In this document: positions 3,910 through 18,680 of the stretch, piece by piece
How positions within the stretch are numbered: position 1 is the first letter of the stretch
Layout: every line of letters starts with the position of its first letter
Assembly: GCA_963695095.1 (NCBI GenBank)
Contig: CAVOFT010000001.1
Span: 2,752,001-2,816,000 of the forward strand
DNA from: an uncultured bacterium
GTDB lineage: Bacteria; Krumholzibacteriota; Krumholzibacteriia; JACNKJ01
DNA length: 64,000 bases
Reading direction: 5' to 3'
Translations under genes and position numbers: made by a program
Notes under the pieces: generated by a model
The model's input: the letters and a program-made list of their open reading frames with translations, nothing else
Database searches by the model: none
What the model was told of the DNA's origin: nothing

Positions 3910-6357
3910 TCAGTGCAGCTCGGGCCAGGTCTCGGCGACCAGGCGGTCGAGCAGGAGGTGGTGCAGAGCCTCCACGTAGCCGCGGCGCACTTCACGCTGG
4001 AACGGAAAGAGCGCGTGCCAGAGACCGTAGAGCCCCTGGGCCTGGATCAGGCGGCGAGCGTGCCCCGGCCAGGAGAAGTGCTCGTGCACGCGGCGCAGGC
4101 CGGCGTGGCTGACCGCCTCCCAGCGCCCGTCGCCAGTCGGCGGCGCCAGCAGGGTCAGCACGGCCTGCTCGATCTCGACGGGCCGGTTGGGATCGACGAG
4201 GAAACCGCTCACCCCGTCCTCGATGATCGAGGCCGGCCCGCCGTAGCGCGTGGCGACCACGGGCAGGCCGCAGGCCATCGCCTCGATCACGGTGAGTCCG
4301 AAGGCCTCGTAAAGGGCCGGCTGCACGAAGACGCCGCGCCCGCGTGCCACGAAGCGATAGAAGTCCGCAACGAGCAGGCGTGCGCAGTCGGCAGGCAGCC
4401 AGCGCACGCAGCCGCGCATCGCCTCGCTGGCCAGCAGCTCGTGCATGAGCTTGATCTGTTCGCGCTCCTCGTGGTCCTTGCTGTCCTCCAGGCGCGTCAC
4501 GCCCGAGACGATGAGCAGATTGCAGGCCGCAGGCAGCCCGGGCCGCCGCGTGAAGGCGCGCACCAGTCCCGTCAGGTTCTTGATGCGATCCAGGCGCGCC
4601 ATCGTCAGCAGCAGCGGCTTGTCCGGATCGCGGAGCTCGCCGAGCGCTCCCGGCACGGCCTCTGCGCCGACGACCATCCGCTCCACCCGCCGCTCGCGGT
4701 CGGCGTCCCCGCTGCGCAGGTTGCCGGCGGAATGGAAGCGCTCGGTGTCCGTGCCCGGCGGATTGATCATGAAGCGCGAAGAATGGATGTTGAAGCCGCT
4801 GTGCACGCGGTAGCAGCCGGGCAGGGTGAAGGCCTCGTAGGTCTCGTACTGACCCATCTCGCGCCGGCCGCCTGCGATCTCCTGGTAAGAGCTGGTCTGG
4901 ATGATGTCCGCGGTGTTCGTCGCCAGCACGTCGGCGAGGAAGTGGATGGAGAAGTGGTAGTCGCGCTCCAGATCCCGCCAGTGAAGGTCGCTGAGCAGGT
5001 ACTTCGACTTTTCGAGGGCATGGGCGACGACGACGAGCGGCACGCCCCAGACGCGCGCGAGCAGGGAGGCCGTCAGGTTGCCGTCCGCATAATTGCCGAC
5101 CACGAAATCCGGGCGCGCCCCCCAGTGCCCCTCCACCACCGCCAGCGACTCCTCGGCGAAGCGCTCCAGATAGGGCCAGACCTGGAAGCGGGAGATCCAC
5201 GGTCGCAGCATCTGGCCGTCCGGACCGCGGAAGGGCACGCGCAGGATCGCCGCGCGGCGTGCGCCCTGGATGCGCTCCAGCGGCCGATCGCAGGTGCTGC
5301 CGGCTGCCTCGGGGATCAGCCGCGTGAGCACCAGCACCTCGGGCTCGAGCTCCACGCCGGCATCGCGCCACACCCGCCGCAGGTGCTTCTCCAGTGCGCG
5401 CGCCTGGTCGAGCAGGTAGACCACCTGGCCGCCGGTGTCCGGCCGGCCGAGCACGTCCTTCTGGGCAAACCAGCCGTGCACGCTCACGAGCAGCACCCGC
5501 TCGACGAGGGGCAGCCGGTTCATCAGTGCGCCGAGGTCCTCGGCACAGGGATCGCGCAGGAGGCGGTCGAGCAGGGCCAGGGTCTCGCAGGCCTGGCCGG
5601 CCGTGCGGCCCCAGCCCGGCGCCAGATCGAGGACGGCGAGCTCCGCGTCGAGGTCAGCCATCGGCACCGCGGCGGGCAGCCCCGCCAGCAGCTCCTGCGC
5701 CTGGCGCAAGCGGCGGCGCAGGACGGCGACATCGGCAGGCGGTGTCCGGAAGAACAGGGCCTGCCCGCCCCCGCGCCGGCCACTGAGCCAGGCCAGCAGG
5801 CGCGGCGGCAGCGCCGCGGGCTCGTCGCGAAGCGCCGCTTCGATCATGCCGGCCAGGCGCTGCGTGCCATTGCCGATGTCGGCCTGCGCGCCGGTCTCTT
5901 CCGGCAATACCTGGAAGGGTCGGAAGTCGATGCCGAAGTCGATGTGCCCATTCAAAGGCTGGCCCAGGATCAGGCCCTCGCGCAGGCGCAGGAACTCGCG
6001 CACGCCGAGCAGGCGCACGGCGCTATCGGCGCGGGCGCTCCCCGCCAGTGCGACGGCATAGGCCCGGCGCAGGCCGGGTTCCTCGCGCAGCACGAAACAC
6101 GCTGTGCTGTCGAGGAAGTCCACCTCTTCGGCGATGTCGACGCGGGCGCCGAGCCCGCGGCGCAAGCGCGCACGCTGCTCCGGCGGCCGCGTCTGCAGGA
6201 AGCGCTGGAAGCTCCGTCGCACCTGATCGCGCAGCACGATGCCCGCACGGCGATCGGGCAGGCCCTCGCGCAGGAGCGTCGCAAACTCGGCCAGCTCCGC
6301 GCGGTCCGCGTCGCACCAGGCACGCACGCTCCAATGGCTGATGTCGTGCTGCATCAC
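3910..6357 (-). CDS. susA: Sucrose synthase (GT4)
   Basis: 815 aa; HGWFAQKDVLGRPDTGGQVVYLLDQARALE, WISRFQVWPYLERF, GNYADGNL, HALEKSKY, MARLDRIKNLTGLV, EAFGLTVIEAMACGLP. Start is GTG 6357 or ATG 6354. Confidence 0.93.
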   Translation of the reverse strand: MMQHDISHWSVRAWCDADRAELAEFATLLREGLPDRRAGIVLRDQVRRSFQRFLQTRPPEQRARLRRGLGARVDIAEEVDFLDSTACFVLREEPGLRRAYAVALAGSARADSAVRLLGVREFLRLREGLILGQPLNGHIDFGIDFRPFQVLPEETGAQADIGNGTQRLAGMIEAALRDEPAALPPRLLAWLSGRRGGGQALFFRTPPADVAVLRRRLRQAQELLAGLPAAVPMADLDAELAVLDLAPGWGRTAGQACETLALLDRLLRDPCAEDLGALMNRLPLVERVLLVSVHGWFAQKDVLGRPDTGGQVVYLLDQARALEKHLRRVWRDAGVELEPEVLVLTRLIPEAAGSTCDRPLERIQGARRAAILRVPFRGPDGQMLRPWISRFQVWPYLERFAEESLAVVEGHWGARPDFVVGNYADGNLTASLLARVWGVPLVVVAHALEKSKYLLSDLHWRDLERDYHFSIHFLADVLATNTADIIQTSSYQEIAGGRREMGQYETYEAFTLPGCYRVHSGFNIHSSRFMINPPGTDTERFHSAGNLRSGDADRERRVERMVVGAEAVPGALGELRDPDKPLLLTMARLDRIKNLTGLVRAFTRRPGLPAACNLLIVSGVTRLEDSKDHEEREQIKLMHELLASEAMRGCVRWLPADCARLLVADFYRFVARGRGVFVQPALYEAFGLTVIEAMACGLPVVATRYGGPASIIEDGVSGFLVDPNRPVEIEQAVLTLLAPPTGDGRWEAVSHAGLRRVHEHFSWPGHARRLIQAQGLYGLWHALFPFQREVRRGYVEALHHLLLDRLVAETWPELH

Positions 6358-6396
6358 AATCCTCGCGATCGAACGACAGAAGCGACTTCACCTCGC

Positions 6397-6425
6397 ACTA
6401 TAGCCAGCAAGCCCTTGCTGCGCAA
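6397..6425 (-). promoter_or_regulatory. Putative sigma70 promoter for sucrose synthase
   Basis: TTGCGC-N17-TATAGT on the minus strand. Confidence 0.55.
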
Positions 6426-6519
6426 GGATTCGGGGTTTGCGCTTGGCCGTCGCTCAATCGCCGTGCTAGGCTGCATGCGTCAGAGTATGCCCTCCACACG
6501 CGAGCCAGAGGAGCGCGGC

Positions 6520-8709
6520 ATGGCGAATCGCCCGCTCTACATTCAGCTCTTCCATCTGCACGGCCTCTTCCGCGGCGAGAACCTGGAGCTCGGTCGCGAC
6601 GCCGACACCGGCGGCCAGACCAAGTACGTGCTCGAGCTGGCCAACGCGTTGGCGCGCGACGAGGGCGTCGCCAGCGTGGATGTCTTCACCCGACGCATCG
6701 AGGACTCGCGGGTGAGCCCGGACTATGCCCAGCCGCTCGAACACCTGGGCCGCAAGCTCCGCATCGTGCGCATCCGCTGTGGCGGGCCGCGCTACCGGCG
6801 CAAGGAGCTACTCTGGCCGCACCTCGACGAGTTCGTCGACAACTGCCTGCGCTTCATGCGGGCCCGCGATCTCGTCCCCGATATCATGCACGCGCACTAC
6901 GCCGATGCCGGCTATGTCGGCAGCCAGATGGCGCCCCTCTTCGGCGTACCACTGGTCTTCACGGGCCATTCGCTGGGGCGGGCCAAGCTCGAGCACCTGG
7001 CGACGGCCGGCATGAGCGAGGCGGAAGCCGATCGGCGCTACGCGATCCGTTATCGCATTGCCGTCGAGGAGCAGGTGCTCCAGCGCGCGGACCTCGTCGT
7101 CACCAGCACGCGGCAGGAGCAAAGGGACCAGTACGGCCTCTACGCCGCCGGCCTCGAGCGCAGCGCGGTAATCCCGCCGGGGATCGACGCCCGTGTCTTC
7201 CGGCCCTTCTTCCAGGCGCCGCGGGATCGCCGCAGCGTCGCCGTGCGCCGCCACCTCGAGGCAGAGCTGGCGCGATTCCACATGCAGCGGTCGAAGCCCC
7301 TCGTGCTTGCGCTGAGTCGGCCCGACCGGCGCAAGAACATCTCCGCGCTCGTCCATGCCTACGGCAGCGATCGCGCGTTGCGCCAGACGGCCAACCTGGC
7401 CATTTTCGCCGGCCTGCGCAAGGACATCAGCGGCATGCCCGACAACGAGCGCGAGGTGCTCAGCGAGATGCTGCTGCTGATGGACCGCTACGACCTCTAC
7501 GGATCGATGGCGATCCCCAAGCGGCACGACTCGGAGCAGGACGTACCGGAGCTGTACCGGCTGGCTGCGCGCAGCCGCGGGGTCTTCGTGAACCCGGCCC
7601 TCACGGAGCCCTTCGGCCTTACCCTCATCGAGGCGGCGGCGAGCGGCCTGCCGGTGGTGTCCACGCATGACGGCGGCCCGCAGGAGATCCTCGACAAGTG
7701 CGGCCACGGCGAACTGGTGGACCCGAACGACCCGGAGGCGATCGCCGCCGCGATCAAGGCCGTGATCGGCAATCCCCAGCGCTGGGCGAAGCTCTCGGCC
7801 AGCGGCATCCGCGGCGTGGAGAAGCACTACACCTGGCGGGCGCACGTGAGCAACTACCTCGCCGAGCTGGGCCGCTTCGCCCGCACCGCGCCCCAGCACA
7901 TCATCCATGGCGCCGCGCCTGAGCTGGCGATCGCGACTCGGCTGCGTCGCGTCAAGCACTTGCTGATCACGGACATCGACGACACCCTGATCGGGGATCC
8001 CGATGCCCTGCTCCGCCTCATCGCCCTGCTGGAGCGGCGCCGCGAGCTGCTCGCCTTCGGCGTGGCCACGGGCCGCCCGATCGAATCGGCCCGCGCCATC
8101 CTGGCCGCGCATGGCGTGCCGCCGCCGGATCTCACGGTCAGCTCGGTCGGTGCCGAGCTCTACTTCGGCGACGCCACCATCCCCGACCGCGGCTGGGAGA
8201 CGCACATCGCGCACCGCTGGGATCGGGAGGAGCTGGCCTCGCGCCTGGCGCGCGTGAAGGGTCTCCGGCTGCAGGAGGCGGCCACGCAACGCCGCTTCAA
8301 GCTCAGCTACTACGTGGAGCCGGCGCGTTTCCGGCGCCAGGCCCTGGACGCGGCGCTGCAGGGCGTGGAGAGCCGCTACACGCTGATCATCTCCGGCGAC
8401 GGCGCCTACCTCGACCTGCTGCCCTATCGCGCGTCCAAGGGCCAGGCCGTCCGCTACCTCGCCTACAAGTGGGACATCGCGCCGAGCACGATCCTCGTGG
8501 CCGGCGACTCGGGCAACGATCGCGAGATGCTCACCGGGCGCATGCCCGCGGTGGTCGTCGCCAATCATCGGCAGGAGCTGGCGGACCTGCGCCGACCGCG
8601 CCGACCCGGCATCTACTTCTCGGCGCACTCCCAGGCCGCAGGCATCCTGGACGGCCTGCAGCACTTCGATTTCGTTCCGGAGGAGGAGCTGCGCGCCGGC
8701 CCTTTTTGA
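6520..8709 (+). CDS. spsA: Bidomain sucrose-phosphate synthase / sucrose-phosphate phosphatase (GT4 + HAD-IIB)
   Basis: RBS GAGGAG before ATG 6520; LHGLFRGENLELGRDADTGGQTKYVLELA, HAHYADAG, TGHSLG, SRPDRRKNI, EPFGLTLIEAAA; C-terminal HAD domain with TDIDDTL, ATGR, SKGQA, GDSGND. Confidence 0.94.
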   Translation: MANRPLYIQLFHLHGLFRGENLELGRDADTGGQTKYVLELANALARDEGVASVDVFTRRIEDSRVSPDYAQPLEHLGRKLRIVRIRCGGPRYRRKELLWPHLDEFVDNCLRFMRARDLVPDIMHAHYADAGYVGSQMAPLFGVPLVFTGHSLGRAKLEHLATAGMSEAEADRRYAIRYRIAVEEQVLQRADLVVTSTRQEQRDQYGLYAAGLERSAVIPPGIDARVFRPFFQAPRDRRSVAVRRHLEAELARFHMQRSKPLVLALSRPDRRKNISALVHAYGSDRALRQTANLAIFAGLRKDISGMPDNEREVLSEMLLLMDRYDLYGSMAIPKRHDSEQDVPELYRLAARSRGVFVNPALTEPFGLTLIEAAASGLPVVSTHDGGPQEILDKCGHGELVDPNDPEAIAAAIKAVIGNPQRWAKLSASGIRGVEKHYTWRAHVSNYLAELGRFARTAPQHIIHGAAPELAIATRLRRVKHLLITDIDDTLIGDPDALLRLIALLERRRELLAFGVATGRPIESARAILAAHGVPPPDLTVSSVGAELYFGDATIPDRGWETHIAHRWDREELASRLARVKGLRLQEAATQRRFKLSYYVEPARFRRQALDAALQGVESRYTLIISGDGAYLDLLPYRASKGQAVRYLAYKWDIAPSTILVAGDSGNDREMLTGRMPAVVVANHRQELADLRRPRRPGIYFSAHSQAAGILDGLQHFDFVPEEELRAGPF

Positions 8710-11435: not shown

Positions 11436-12056
11436 ATGGAACGCATCGGAATCCTGCTTTGCCTCTGCCTGCTGGCCACCACCCCGGCCGGCGCCTTCGA
11501 CCTGCTCCTGGACATCGACGCCGACGGCGACCCGGCCACGCTGGCCACCGCCACGGAGGCCGGCAGCGCCGACCTGCGCCTCGTCCTGGCGCCCAGCGAC
11601 GGCGCCGAGTGGATCGCCGGCATCTCATTCGGCCTGGGCGGCACCTGCTGGGAGTGCTTTGGGCAGGGCGTGCCCTTCACCTACGGCAGCGAGGCGGACA
11701 TCTTCGGCGTCTTCGCCGACTGGCACGAGAGCCCGCTCTTCGCAACGAGCTGGGGCGACGTCAGCCTGTGCCTGGGCTGCTGCAACGGCGCCGGGGACGG
11801 CCCCGGCTACCACTTCATCTATGGCGCCGAGGCCGCCGATGGCGGCTTCTGGCTCACGGCGCCGGTCTTCATCGCCAGCTTCCAGGCCCGGGTGTCGGAC
11901 AGCGCTGTCTTCCCTCGCTGCCCGCGGCCCCCCGCCGACCTGATCAGCTTCCCCCTGCTCACCCAGGGCGCAGGCAACCGCGTGCTCATGGGCGGAGAGG
12001 CCCCGCCCACGCCCGCAGCCACGCAGAGCTGGAGCGCGATCAAGTCGCTCTACTAA
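11436..12056 (+). CDS. Secreted Cys-rich hypothetical protein with C-terminal SWSAIKSLY motif
   Basis: 206 aa; signal peptide MERIGILLCLCLLATTPAGA; CWEC and CLGCC; ends PTPAATQSWSAIKSLY. Confidence 0.8.
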   Translation: MERIGILLCLCLLATTPAGAFDLLLDIDADGDPATLATATEAGSADLRLVLAPSDGAEWIAGISFGLGGTCWECFGQGVPFTYGSEADIFGVFADWHESPLFATSWGDVSLCLGCCNGAGDGPGYHFIYGAEAADGGFWLTAPVFIASFQARVSDSAVFPRCPRPPADLISFPLLTQGAGNRVLMGGEAPPTPAATQSWSAIKSLY

Positions 12057-13253: not shown

Positions 13254-13835
13254 ATGCACCGGAGCGACAGCGAAGAGAGCGCCTCACCGGCGGAGGCCGG
13301 CCCCGCGCAGCATCGGCGGGAGGGGCTCGGGGCCCTGGGCCTGGCCCTGATCACGGTAAGCGATACCCGCAGCCTGGCCGATGATCGCTCCGGCGCCCTG
13401 ACCATCAGCTTGCTCGAGGCGGCGGGCCACCGCGTGCTCAGCCGCAGCCTGGTGGCGGACGAGCCGGCTCGCATCGAGGCGGCGATCCTGGCGGCGCTCG
13501 CCGTCCCGGATTGCGCTGCGGTGCTGCTCACCGGCGGCACGGGCGTGAGCCCGCGCGACGGCACGCCAGAAGTGCTCGCCCGCCTCTGGGAGCGCGAGCT
13601 GCCGGGCTTCGGTGAGCTGTTTCGCTGGTTGAGCTGGCAGGAGATCGGTCCGGCAGCCATGCTGAGCCGCGCCTGCGCCGGCCAGCGCGAGGGTCGACTC
13701 CTCGTCTCCCTGCCGGGCTCCCCCGCTGCCGTGCGCCTGGCACTCGAGGGCTTGCTGCTGCCGGAGCTGGGCCACCTCGTCGCTCAGTTGCAGAAGGCCG
13801 AAGGCCCGCAAACAGAGGGGCCGGCCCCTCGCTGA
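13254..13835 (+). CDS. moaB: Molybdenum cofactor biosynthesis protein MoaB/MogA family
   Basis: RBS AGGAG; ITVSDTR, TGGTGVSPRDGTPE, LPGFGELFR, AMLSRA, SLPGSP. Confidence 0.92.
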   Translation: MHRSDSEESASPAEAGPAQHRREGLGALGLALITVSDTRSLADDRSGALTISLLEAAGHRVLSRSLVADEPARIEAAILAALAVPDCAAVLLTGGTGVSPRDGTPEVLARLWERELPGFGELFRWLSWQEIGPAAMLSRACAGQREGRLLVSLPGSPAAVRLALEGLLLPELGHLVAQLQKAEGPQTEGPAPR

Positions 13836-14036
13836 AGAGGAGCCGGCCTGACAGAGTGGGCGGAACGAATCCTGAACCCCCTCACCGCTTCGAAGACCGG
13901 ACTACCTGCTTACCCCTCACTGCTCACCACGGCGAACAGCCAACCAGTCCGACGATCCTCGAAGCCCTCTCAGTCCGTTCGTTCGTCCCGCCCAGAATCG
14001 ACGGCCCGATCGGGTTCACCCTAACCGGGCCTTGTA
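13815..14036 (-). ncRNA. Candidate structured ncRNA (~220 nt; 5' hairpin plus 138-nt rod), family unassigned
   Basis: Own sigma70 promoter and terminator. Rod 13857-13994 has two 13-bp stems and an apical 9-bp stem whose mismatches are G-U only on the minus strand. 5' hairpin at 14003-14031. Ends are approximate. Confidence 0.65.
13819..13848 (-). terminator. Intrinsic terminator-like hairpin, possibly bidirectional (candidate ncRNA / moaB)
   Basis: Minus strand GGCCGGCTCCTC-TTCAGC-GAGGGGCCGGCC (12 bp with one G-U) followed by CCTCTGTTT. Confidence 0.6.
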
Positions 14037-14042
14037 GTCCAG

Positions 14043-14071
14043 AATCTACCGAAAAAAAGGGGCTAATGCAA
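14043..14071 (-). promoter_or_regulatory. Sigma70 promoter for the candidate ncRNA, overlapping the Rrf2 gene stop
   Basis: TTGCAT (14066-14071)-N17-TAGATT (14043-14048). Confidence 0.6.
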
Positions 14072-18431: not shown

Positions 18432-18680
18432 ATGCCCCTCCGCGCTCGCCTGTTGCTCGCTCTGCTCATCGGCGTGGCCAGCGTCGGCGCCGCCTTCGCC
18501 GCCGAGCAGGCTGAGGAGCTGCAGGTCTGTCAGCCGGCCCCGGAATCGACACAAGAAGGTAATCAGAGTGAGCCCGCCGGCAATGGGCTCGAGGCAATGG
18601 CTGCTCCCGCCTCCCCGGCGCAGAGGGCAGCCGATGTGACGCCGACCAGCTGGGGCAACGTCAAGGCGCTCTGGGGCTGA
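18432..18680 (+). CDS. Small secreted protein with C-terminal SWGNVKALWG motif
   Basis: 82 aa; RBS AAGGA; signal peptide ending AFA; low-complexity linker; ends DVTPTSWGNVKALWG. Confidence 0.75.
   Translation: MPLRARLLLALLIGVASVGAAFAAEQAEELQVCQPAPESTQEGNQSEPAGNGLEAMAAPASPAQRAADVTPTSWGNVKALWG

What the first reader, a model, noticed from the sequence alone, without database searches (positions are those of the whole stretch)
13815..14071. Stand-alone structured ncRNA behind the Rrf2 gene, with a duplicated internal-loop motif
Seen on the minus strand: promoter TTGCAT-N17-TAGATT, a 5' hairpin (14003-14031), a 138-nt rod (13857-13994) and a terminator hairpin. Rod stems are UGGGCGGGACGAA/UUCGUUCCGCCCA, GCUUCGAGGAUCG/CGGUCUUCGAAGC and GCUGUUCGC/GUGAGCAGU. 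Imperfect pairs are G-U on this strand only, as expected for selection on RNA structure. Two nested modules repeat: CGGACUG on the 5' arm (13971-13977, 13945-13951) and AGCRGUGAGGGG...CAGG on the 3' arm (13913-13924, 13878-13889). SRP, RNase P and tmRNA hallmarks are absent. The CUGAG/GGUUCAG pairing recalls 6S RNA, but the central bubble is small. Inference: a divergent 6S-like RNA or a new protein-binding sRNA with two sites.
Basis: partly seen in the sequence, partly recalled or inferred. Interest (0 to 1): 0.75.

Follow-up and report, generated by a model that had tools for sequence, protein, structure and literature searches.

The report
New conserved rod-shaped bacterial RNA family
One family of uncultured bacteria carries a strongly conserved gene for a roughly 140-letter non-coding RNA, predicted to fold as a rod, that matches no catalogued RNA family and is separate from their 6S RNA; it is likely a stable protein-binding RNA built around a predicted kink-turn and a repeated G-rich motif, possibly switched by the iron-sulfur regulator encoded next to it.

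Summary
The rod at 13857-13994 (minus strand) is real. It is single-copy, folds better than all 200 shuffles, and recurs between rrf2 and moaB in 9 of 12 family genomes plus 4 new metagenome loci. Twelve of 43 pairs show compensatory change, and it is more conserved than the 6S RNA of the same genomes. No Rfam family matches. The 6S reading is not supported as the housekeeping 6S: a canonical 6S gene lies elsewhere in all 12 family genomes. Metatranscriptome contigs cover the rod in 6 of 8 runs laid, several stopping near its base, a hint of a processed ~140-nt RNA. The repeated core is GUGAGGGG; the 5' hairpin and CAGG are not conserved. The outer copy fits a box C/D-type kink-turn (9 of 9 unselected loci; 12 of 1500 loop shuffles). 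The apical hairpin is predicted to slip between registers that expose or hide the inner copy. A palindrome over the -10 resembles sites at rrf2 promoters. Best reading: a protein-binding RNP/decoy RNA likely under Rrf2 repression (0.4); rival: a G-rich base-pairing sRNA or sponge (0.25). Function is untested. This scan's earlier notes held nothing similar.

The parts
13857..13994 (-). Conserved RNA rod, the likely mature ~140-nt RNA
   Evidence: z -4.54 for the transcript region; 13 loci, 95.9% of cells paired, 12 of 43 pairs compensatory; RNA-library contigs stopping near its base
13981..13994 (-). Closing helix, 5' strand (pairs with 13857-13871)
   Evidence: 8 of 14 pairs with compensatory change, no invariant column on this strand
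13967..13976 (-). Outer loop 5' strand with CUGA (13973-13970), predicted non-bulged strand of a box C/D-type kink-turn
   Evidence: 9 of 12 columns of this strand invariant; pattern test
13874..13887 (-). Outer loop 3' strand with GUGAGGGG (13885-13878), predicted bulged kink-turn strand; Shine-Dalgarno-like
   Evidence: 9 of 14 columns invariant; anti-SD duplex -13.0 kcal/mol
13955..13964 (-). Middle helix, 5' strand (pairs with 13888-13897)
   Evidence: 3 of 10 pairs compensatory, 98.5% of cells paired
13946..13950 (-). Short helix (pairs with 13899-13903)
   Evidence: 1 of 5 pairs compensatory
13909..13940 (-). Apical hairpin plus inner GUGAGGGGUAAG (13920-13909); predicted to slip between a register that exposes the motif and one that pairs it
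   Evidence: 12 of 12 columns of the motif strand invariant; both registers have probability of at least 0.19 in 12 of 13 sequences; neither register has a compensatory pair
14043..14071 (-). Sigma70-type promoter of the RNA (-35 at 14071-14066, -10 at 14048-14043)
   Evidence: position and spacing kept in 13 of 13 loci; fails the strict scan in G000 alone
14023..14044 (-). Candidate Rrf2 operator (consensus TTCWGGAC-N6-GTCCWGAA) over the -10 and predicted start; degenerate in this genome
   Evidence: 7 of 7 symmetric in 3 of 13 loci, 3 of 7 in G000; the matrix finds similar sites at rrf2 promoters
14003..14031 (-). 5' leader hairpin, not conserved, likely removed
   Evidence: contig ends
13819..13848 (-). 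Intrinsic terminator-like hairpin of the RNA, facing the end of moaB
   Evidence: a hairpin follows the rod closely in most loci, weak or unclear in L049
14052..14077 (-). Terminator-like hairpin and T-run at the end of rrf2, overlapping the RNA's -35
   Evidence: read from the sequence; similar in L042, L043, L045, L067
14063..14509 (-). Rrf2-family regulator, 148 aa, with C-X6-C-X5-C-X2-H (likely Fe-S ligands)
   Evidence: TIGR00738 above cut-off; IscR, NsrR and CymR equivalogs below cut-off; PF02082; upstream of the RNA in 13 of 13 loci

Best explanation
This is a single-copy non-coding RNA gene conserved across one bacterial family, whose product is likely trimmed to a stable ~140-nt rod and likely acts as a protein-binding scaffold or decoy through a predicted box C/D-type kink-turn and a repeated GUGAGGGG motif, with transcription possibly repressed by the adjacent Rrf2 protein. 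Steps: (1) shown: own promoter-like and terminator-like signals, fixed synteny, covarying helices, invariant loops. (2) Hinted by RNA-library contigs: the leader and terminator are removed, leaving the rod. (3) Inferred: the outer loop folds as a kink-turn (CUGA 13973-13970 with N-G-U-G-A-G-G 13886-13880), bending the rod and offering a site for the genome's L7Ae-family (YlxQ-like) protein or another binder. (4) Predicted: the apical hairpin slips by 7 nt to expose or hide the second GUGAGGGG, a second recognition site. (5) Inferred: the Fe-S-type Rrf2 protein sits on a palindrome over the -10 and releases the promoter on a redox, iron or nitric-oxide signal.
For: Covariation lies in the outer helices while the loops and apical hairpin are nearly invariant, the pattern expected where bases, not only pairs, are recognised. 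Identity to G000 exceeds that of 6S in 8 of 8 relatives (0.74-0.93 against 0.66-0.91) and is within 0-7 points of SRP RNA in 7 of 7. The strict box C/D-type kink-turn pattern is in register in 13 of 13 sequences (9 of 9 not selected by motif), 0 of 32 6S RNAs and 12 of 1500 loop shuffles; its variable positions are the first bulge base and a C-to-U that keeps the closing pair. A natural kink-turn with a single closing G-C pair binds L7Ae (PMC5539422, passages), and a bacterial ncRNA uses a kink-turn to recruit an L7Ae homologue (PMC9723947, passages). An L7Ae-family gene is present in G000 after nusA. Hfq was not found in 5 of 5 genomes searched. Rod contigs in 6 of 8 RNA runs, with adapter-like ends at 13859 in three studies and at about 13984-13988 in three. 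An operator matrix built only from the RNA promoters picks the same place just behind the -10 in 11 of 13 rrf2 leaders and scores p<=0.05 in 8 of 21 paralogue leaders and at G000's closest paralogue.
Against: No binding partner is shown. The kink-turn was spotted after looking, has a one-pair closing stem followed by a 4-nt bulge, has no covariation of its own, and the loose kink-turn pattern does not discriminate (25 of 32 6S RNAs, 1494 of 1500 shuffles). At least three other pairings of the same loop fit the alignment about as well. The inner copy lacks the needed CUGA, so the two motifs cannot both be standard kink-turns. The L7Ae-family gene is also in G003 and G006, where the RNA was not found. 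Operator: only 4 of 13 rrf2 leaders reach p<=0.05 in register, G000's own scores p 0.23, and G000's RNA site is 3 of 7 symmetric. Runs X1 and X2 hold close-relative rrf2 contigs but no rod; a long X7 contig runs from the rod through rrf2, so read-through or DNA contributes; contigs cannot establish ends, strand or level.
Confidence: 0.4

Rival explanations
1. An Hfq-independent base-pairing sRNA or RNA sponge: the two G-rich tracts are seeds that pair with C-rich leaders just upstream of ribosome-binding sites, or with a C-rich sRNA, as RosA does with RoxS and FsrA.
For: The G-rich tracts are the best-conserved strands and mostly unpaired in prediction. A 12-nt perfect complement of the outer motif abuts the SD of a FabL-like reductase in G000; the 8-nt core is kept in 3 of 10 orthologue leaders from three genera and C-rich variants in 3 more. 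The 10-nt complement is in 3 of 1690 leaders against 0.11-0.19 expected. Precedent: RosA uses single-stranded G-rich regions (PMC8216469, passages).
Against: The site is missing in 4 of 10 orthologue leaders (all genus g3) although the RNA motif is unchanged. The 8-mer is in 4 leaders against 1.1-1.8 expected, and 9 of 56 permutations do as well. The seed-before-SD pattern also occurs in G003 (5) and G006 (2), where the RNA was not found, and not in RNA-bearing G004, G005 or G010. No stand-alone C-rich partner RNA stood out among intergenic sites (crude gene calls). Whole-rod conservation near the SRP level is more than a seed needs.
Confidence: 0.25
2. A second, 6S-like RNA that binds RNA polymerase (perhaps with another sigma factor), with the soft outer loop as central bubble.
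For: Rod shape, processing hints and CUGAG/GGUUCA words shared with 6S P2; some bacteria have two 6S RNAs and truncated 6S still works (PMC8876501, passages).
Against: No RF00013 match at this locus while the family's true 6S is found elsewhere in 12 of 12. Length 138 against ~200 nt. The 6S-like helix has no compensatory pair and its first pair is broken in 3 of 13. The loop is G-rich and invariant, not an open unstructured bubble.
Confidence: 0.12
3. A Shine-Dalgarno mimic that occupies the anti-SD of free 30S subunits, or titrates an SD-binding factor, to damp translation under redox stress.
For: The outer tract pairs with the genome's 16S 3' end at -13.0 kcal/mol, against -11.6 for rrf2's own SD; no conserved reading frame follows; the apical switch could gate the second tract.
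Against: The inner tract pairs more weakly (-9.1); any G-rich hexamer pairs with an anti-SD; the invariant bases exceed what SD pairing needs; no precedent seen in the 8 listed of 12 papers (listing only).
Confidence: 0.08
4. A CsrB/RsmZ-type decoy for CsrA.
For: CsrA is present in 5 of 5 genomes searched.
Against: G000's csrA sits in flgK-flgL-fliW-csrA-flagellin, the FliW-antagonised type (own knowledge); the GGA triplets lie in stems or vary, and the repeated motif holds none.
Confidence: 0.04
5. Not a free RNA: a 3' UTR stabiliser of rrf2 mRNA, a DNA repeat or a small ORF.
For: One RNA-library contig joins rod and rrf2.
Against: Single copy; own promoter behind a terminator-like hairpin; G-U-rich strand-specific fold and covariation; no ORF of 15 aa or more shared across loci; rod-only contigs in X9, X14 and X20.
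Confidence: 0.05

Closest known systems
6S RNA (RF00013)
   Same: Stand-alone rod with imperfect helices, likely processed and stable; shares short CUGAG and GGUUCA words.
   Different: 138 nt, no model match, no open central bubble, other genomic context; the genome's own 6S is elsewhere; more conserved than that 6S.
OLE RNA with its YbxF/OapC kink-turn (PMC9723947)
   Same: Conserved bacterial ncRNA in which a kink-turn competes with an alternative pairing and recruits an L7Ae-family protein.
   Different: OLE is ~600 nt and multi-branched; no Rfam match here; here the kink-turn and partner are only predicted.
Archaeal box C/D kink-turns (consensus as given in PMC5539422)
   Same: CUGA opposite RUGA-N-G with a 3-nt bulge.
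   Different: G instead of U at the fifth and A-to-G at the seventh box C position; no guide regions identified; box order is D then C; methyltransferase partners not searched.
RosA RNA sponge of Bacillus subtilis (PMC8216469)
   Same: Processed RNA with repeated G-rich regions; Hfq not found here.
   Different: No C-rich partner sRNA found; rigid rod with near-SRP conservation; no sequence or model match.
Small bacterial SRP (4.5S) RNA (RF00169)
   Same: Rod of similar size and conservation level with conserved internal loops.
   Different: No model match and no GNRA-capped helix 8; the true SRP RNA is elsewhere.

Membership tests
6S RNA | Match to the RF00013 covariance model | tested here: not met
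   No hit at E<=5 locally, at gathering score in the window, or in four relatives' loci at E<=1
6S RNA | ~200-nt rod with an unstructured central bubble between two arms (PMC8876501) | tested here: not met
   138 nt; both loops asymmetric, G-rich and with competing pairings
6S RNA | Is the genome's ssrS gene (usually single) | tested here: not met
   Canonical 6S at G000 C1:1977803-1977978, E 1.6e-5, 35.8 bits (below gathering 46.4), between zapA and ymdB; homologues in 12 of 12 family genomes
6S RNA | Binds RNA polymerase holoenzyme and templates product RNAs | not testable with these tools
   needs biochemistry
SRP RNA | RF00169/RF01854 match and helix 8 motif | tested here: not met
   True SRP RNA elsewhere; none here
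tmRNA / RNase P RNA | ARAGORN tmRNA call or RF00010 match | tested here: not met
   Both found elsewhere in G000
Kink-turn motif (box C/D type) | 3-nt bulge followed by tandem G.A and A.G pairs, CUGA on the non-bulged strand | tested here: met
   Pattern in register in 13 of 13 (9 of 9 unselected), 0 of 32 controls, 12 of 1500 shuffles; sequence pattern only
Kink-turn motif (box C/D type) | Canonical stem closing the bulge | tested here: inconclusive
   One pair (13969 with 13887, kept 13 of 13), then a 4-nt bulge before the middle helix
Kink-turn motif (box C/D type) | Folds kinked and binds an L7Ae-family protein | not testable with these tools
   Candidate protein present; binding untested
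CsrB/RsmY/RsmZ decoys | Multiple conserved GGA motifs in hairpin loops (own knowledge) | tested here: not met
   GGA in stems or variable; single terminal loop without GGA
G-rich RNA sponges (RosA type) | Repeated, accessible G-rich regions | tested here: inconclusive
   Two invariant tracts; mean unpaired probability 0.68-0.83 outer, 0.28-0.70 inner
G-rich RNA sponges (RosA type) | A cognate C-rich sRNA or conserved target | tested here: inconclusive
   No partner RNA found; one leader site exact in 3 of 10 orthologues
REP/MITE-like repeat | Many dispersed copies | tested here: not met
   One full match; the 15 others have E>=0.16 and are at most 32 nt
Riboswitch / leader RNA | Lies 5' of a co-oriented gene; Rfam match | tested here: not met
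   Followed by a terminator and the convergent moaB

The most novel reading that the evidence does not exclude
A new class of small housekeeping-grade bacterial ribonucleoprotein: a processed rod, induced when an Fe-S Rrf2 sensor lets go, that is kinked by a box C/D-type kink-turn (giving the YlxQ-like protein a dedicated RNA) and presents two Shine-Dalgarno-mimic strands, one behind a slip-register switch, to capture 30S subunits or an SD-binding factor and throttle translation under redox stress.
Probability: 0.1. Interest if true: 0.85.

Novelty: new variant of a known kind. Interest (0 to 1): 0.55.

Why it matters
Small structured bacterial RNAs conserved nearly as tightly as SRP RNA are few, and each known one turned out to be a machine part or a global decoy. 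This is a new family, with clear ends, a tiny size and specific testable motifs, so its structure and partners can be tested in vitro without culturing the host. If the kink-turn holds it offers a natural target for bacterial L7Ae homologues outside the OLE system; if the operator holds it adds an RNA output to Rrf2 Fe-S sensing. The limit on importance is range: so far one family of uncultured bacteria. In passing, Rfam's filtered 6S search misses the true 6S in most genomes of this family, which could have led to this RNA being misnamed 6S.

Tried and rejected
1. 'Missing 6S': attractive after (no hit in G000; 132 of 140 class genomes outside the family have a hit, 1 of 10 inside), rejected when G010's hit led to the syntenic true 6S. 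2. Wider homologues: DNA search of 208 class genomes gave 5 weak 19-24-nt matches outside the family that lack the rod; model R1 found 0 of 140 outside the family (only 20 candidates scored per genome) and 2 partial hits at E 0.49 and 0.93 in a second draw of 151; an exact two-motif pattern over 185,579 genomes gave 5 loci identical to family loci already held; 2 of 7 metagenome matches were chance and 1 duplicated G001; viral contigs gave 1 chance repeat and 0; phages and plasmids none. These searches favour close relatives, so distant homologues are not excluded. 3. 23S rRNA A-loop mimicry: a shared 13-mer occurs in 48 of 2000 shuffles, the A-loop hairpin costs 9.4 kcal/mol and is not kept in relatives (the label A-loop is recalled). 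4. A GNRA mini-hairpin in the outer 5' strand: folds on its own in 2 of 13, with the GAGA loop in 1. 5. Pairing the outer ACUG with CRGU to make the modules identical: fits the alignment (98.1%) but probability is at most 0.01. 6. Small ORF: none shared. 7. CsrA decoy. 8. Genome-wide leader target ranking was uninformative in a 70% GC genome. 9. Operator scan of G000 gave no clear regulon; most of the top 40 sites lie inside genes.

Full report
Observation. The 231-nt region folds at -120.4 kcal/mol with z -4.54 and 0 of 200 shuffles as stable; the other strand is weaker (-88.3, z -3.01). The region is single-copy in the 3.64-Mb, 93.5% complete genome. Rfam gives nothing credible locally (one chance miRNA hit at E 4.6), nothing in the window at gathering score, and only three E 0.4-0.84 hits in four relatives' loci. 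The neighbours are a SpoIIE-like phosphatase gene and rrf2 upstream on the same strand, and a convergent moaB-like gene followed by mutY downstream, so the RNA leads no gene.

Conservation and range. Searching 61 genomes with the Rrf2 protein found 79-92% identical orthologues in 8 of 11 other family genomes, and the rod follows all 8. Of the other three, G011 (77% complete) has moaB 41 bases from a contig end, and G003 and G006 showed neither the Rrf2 orthologue nor a close moaB with these queries. A motif pattern over metagenomes added 4 new loci in the same gene order (7 matches: 4 new, 1 identical to G001, 2 chance). These 4 were selected by the motifs, so statements of motif invariance rest on the 9 genome loci. 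Outside the family nothing was found in the genomes searched, nor in viruses, phages or plasmids. The lineage is not named by the tools; Atlas neighbours of a small secreted protein of the window point loosely to Eisenbacteria/Krumholzibacteriota-type bacteria, a lead only.

Structure. In the 13-sequence alignment a five-helix rod has 95.9% of 559 cells paired and 12 of 43 pairs with compensatory change; no shuffle reached these values and slid controls pair 33-58% (the shuffle control ignores relatedness). Covariation sits in the closing helix (8 pairs), the middle helix (3) and the short helix (1). The loops and apical hairpin are instead nearly invariant: 12 of 12 columns of the inner motif strand, 9 of 14 of the outer, 9 of 12 of the outer 5' strand, 14 of 22 of the hairpin. 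Against G000 the rod is 74-93% identical in 8 relatives, 6S 66-91%, SRP 87-98% in 7. The 5' leader varies from 21 to 53 nt and is unstructured in about half the loci; no reading frame is shared.

It is not the housekeeping 6S. The first genome search found no 6S in G000, and the family stood out as lacking hits (1 of 10 against 132 of 140 outside). But G010's hit lay at another locus; its G000 orthologue (67% identical, syntenic) carries the class's 6S signature, matches RF00013 at E 1.6e-5 (35.8 bits, under the gathering score) and sits in pheT-zapA-ssrS-ymdB-folD. Homologues are in 12 of 12 family genomes. SRP, RNase P and tmRNA genes are also elsewhere.

Expression hints. Twenty runs hold a small share of the region; I laid 8. 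The rod is covered in 6 (X5, X7, X9, X11, X14, X20) and not in X1 and X2, which hold close-relative rrf2 contigs at depth 2-4. In X9, X14 and X20 only the rod is covered by convincing pieces. Letters I recognise from memory as sequencing adapters join the contigs at 13859 (X7, X9, X20) or 13881 (X9, X14) and, at the other end, at about 13984-13988 (X9, X14, X20); the X11 contig stops at about 13994 and runs on past the terminator; one X7 contig runs from the rod through rrf2. All are contigs of relatives, which cannot show ends, strand or level, so this is a hint, repeated across studies, of a processed ~140-nt RNA.

Signals for control. A -35/-10 pair with 17-18 nt spacing precedes the RNA in 13 of 13 loci, though G000's alone fails a consensus scan. 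In G000 and four relatives the -35 lies inside a terminator-like hairpin that ends rrf2. A 22-bp palindrome starts in the -10; it is 7 of 7 symmetric in 3 loci and 3 of 7 in G000. A matrix built from these sites alone picks the same place behind the -10 in 11 of 13 rrf2 leaders (p<=0.05 in 4; 0.23 in G000) and reaches p<=0.05 in 8 of 21 paralogue leaders and at G000's closest paralogue (simple shuffles, related sequences). Rrf2 proteins bind inverted repeats and autoregulate (PMC5015018, passages; its 11-3-11 spacing differs from this one). The protein has three cysteines and a histidine spaced like IscR ligands (spacing recalled) but meets no named equivalog cut-off. Repression by Rrf2 is therefore plausible, not shown.

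How it most likely works. The repeated core is GUGAGGGG. In the outer loop it faces an invariant CUGA, giving N-G-U-G-A-G-G opposite CUGA, the box C/D kink-turn pattern (consensus and a single-pair natural example in PMC5539422, passages). The strict pattern is in register in 13 of 13 sequences, 0 of 32 6S RNAs and 12 of 1500 loop shuffles; the loose pattern is uninformative. The test was designed after seeing the motif, and other pairings fit as well. An L7Ae-family gene follows nusA, but is also in the two genomes where the RNA was not found. The inner copy lacks CUGA; there the 5' strand of the apical hairpin can pair in two registers 7 nt apart, one exposing and one hiding the motif, both with probability of at least 0.19 in 12 of 13 sequences and both about 97% paired without compensatory change. 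Base-specific conservation of loops on a covarying rod, near the SRP level, with Hfq not found, fits a protein-bound RNA best (0.4). OLE RNA is the working analogy: a kink-turn competing with another pairing and bound by an L7Ae homologue (PMC9723947, passages).

Rivals. G-rich seed pairing (0.25) has a precedent in RosA (PMC8216469, passages) and one candidate, a FabL-like reductase leader with a 12-nt complement beside its SD, exact at the 8-nt core in 3 of 10 orthologues, C-rich in 3, absent in 4; the same leader pattern occurs in genomes without the RNA and is missing from three with it. A second 6S-like RNA (0.12), an SD mimic for 30S (0.08), a CsrA decoy (0.04; flagellar csrA) and a non-RNA element (0.05) are less likely.

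Novelty. No Rfam family matches. Literature searches found no paper with both 'Krumholzibacteri' and 'noncoding RNA', one unrelated paper for novel structured RNAs in uncultured Eisenbacteria, and no described match in the listings (titles and abstract starts only). The library lacks most subscription papers, and I did not search supplementary tables of large RNA-motif screens, where this RNA could be listed. Earlier notes of this scan held nothing on it. Verdict: a real, new, family-restricted structured RNA of untested function; interest 0.55.

Noticed in passing
L109:2804-2979 (G000 C1:1977803-1977978, minus): Divergent canonical 6S RNA gene that scores below Rfam's gathering threshold and is lost by filtered genome searches in most of the family.
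   Followed up: yes
L121:530-979 (G000 C1:1466829): Rrf2 paralogue, 52% identical, with the same cysteine spacing and a symmetric operator-like site behind its -10.
   Followed up: partly
L019, L032, L036, L038: More distant Rrf2 paralogues in other families of the class head genes that look like respiratory oxidase or nitric-oxide reductase subunits (read from sequence, not scanned).
   Followed up: no
L116:105-905 (G000 C1:1659301-1660104, minus): FabL-like short-chain reductase found in 10 of 12 family genomes and not in the two that also lack the RNA locus; short C-rich leader that might fold onto its own SD.
   Followed up: partly
window 13881: Contigs of two RNA runs end with adapter-like letters inside the outer G-rich motif, possibly a cleavage or priming site.
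   Followed up: no
L046, L047, L048, L049, L065, L066 inner loop: In genera g3/g4 the 5' strand of the inner loop reads GGUGA opposite a GA, a possible second kink-turn in the opposite orientation that genus g1 lacks; it did not pass the pattern test.
   Followed up: partly
window 11436-12056 (+) and 18432-18680 (+): Small secreted-looking proteins ending in an S-W-x-x-[IV]-K-x-L-[YW] motif; no NCBIfam family for the first, Atlas clusters unnamed.
   Followed up: partly
L115:1405-1746 (minus): YlxQ-like L7Ae-family gene directly after nusA, barely over the Pfam cut-off in G000.
   Followed up: partly
L110:2676-11744: Flagellar cluster flgK-flgL-fliW-csrA followed by what look like three tandem flagellin genes (first confirmed).
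   Followed up: partly
G005: No SRP RNA hit in this 99% complete genome with the filtered search; probably a miss.
   Followed up: no
window 6060-8709 (+), within ORF 3913-8709: Sucrose-phosphate synthase/phosphatase-like fusion protein, judged from its sequence.
   Followed up: no
G000 C1:3240604 and C1:147886: Operator-matrix hits upstream of a cytochrome c-like gene and a thioredoxin reductase-like gene; conservation not tested.
   Followed up: no
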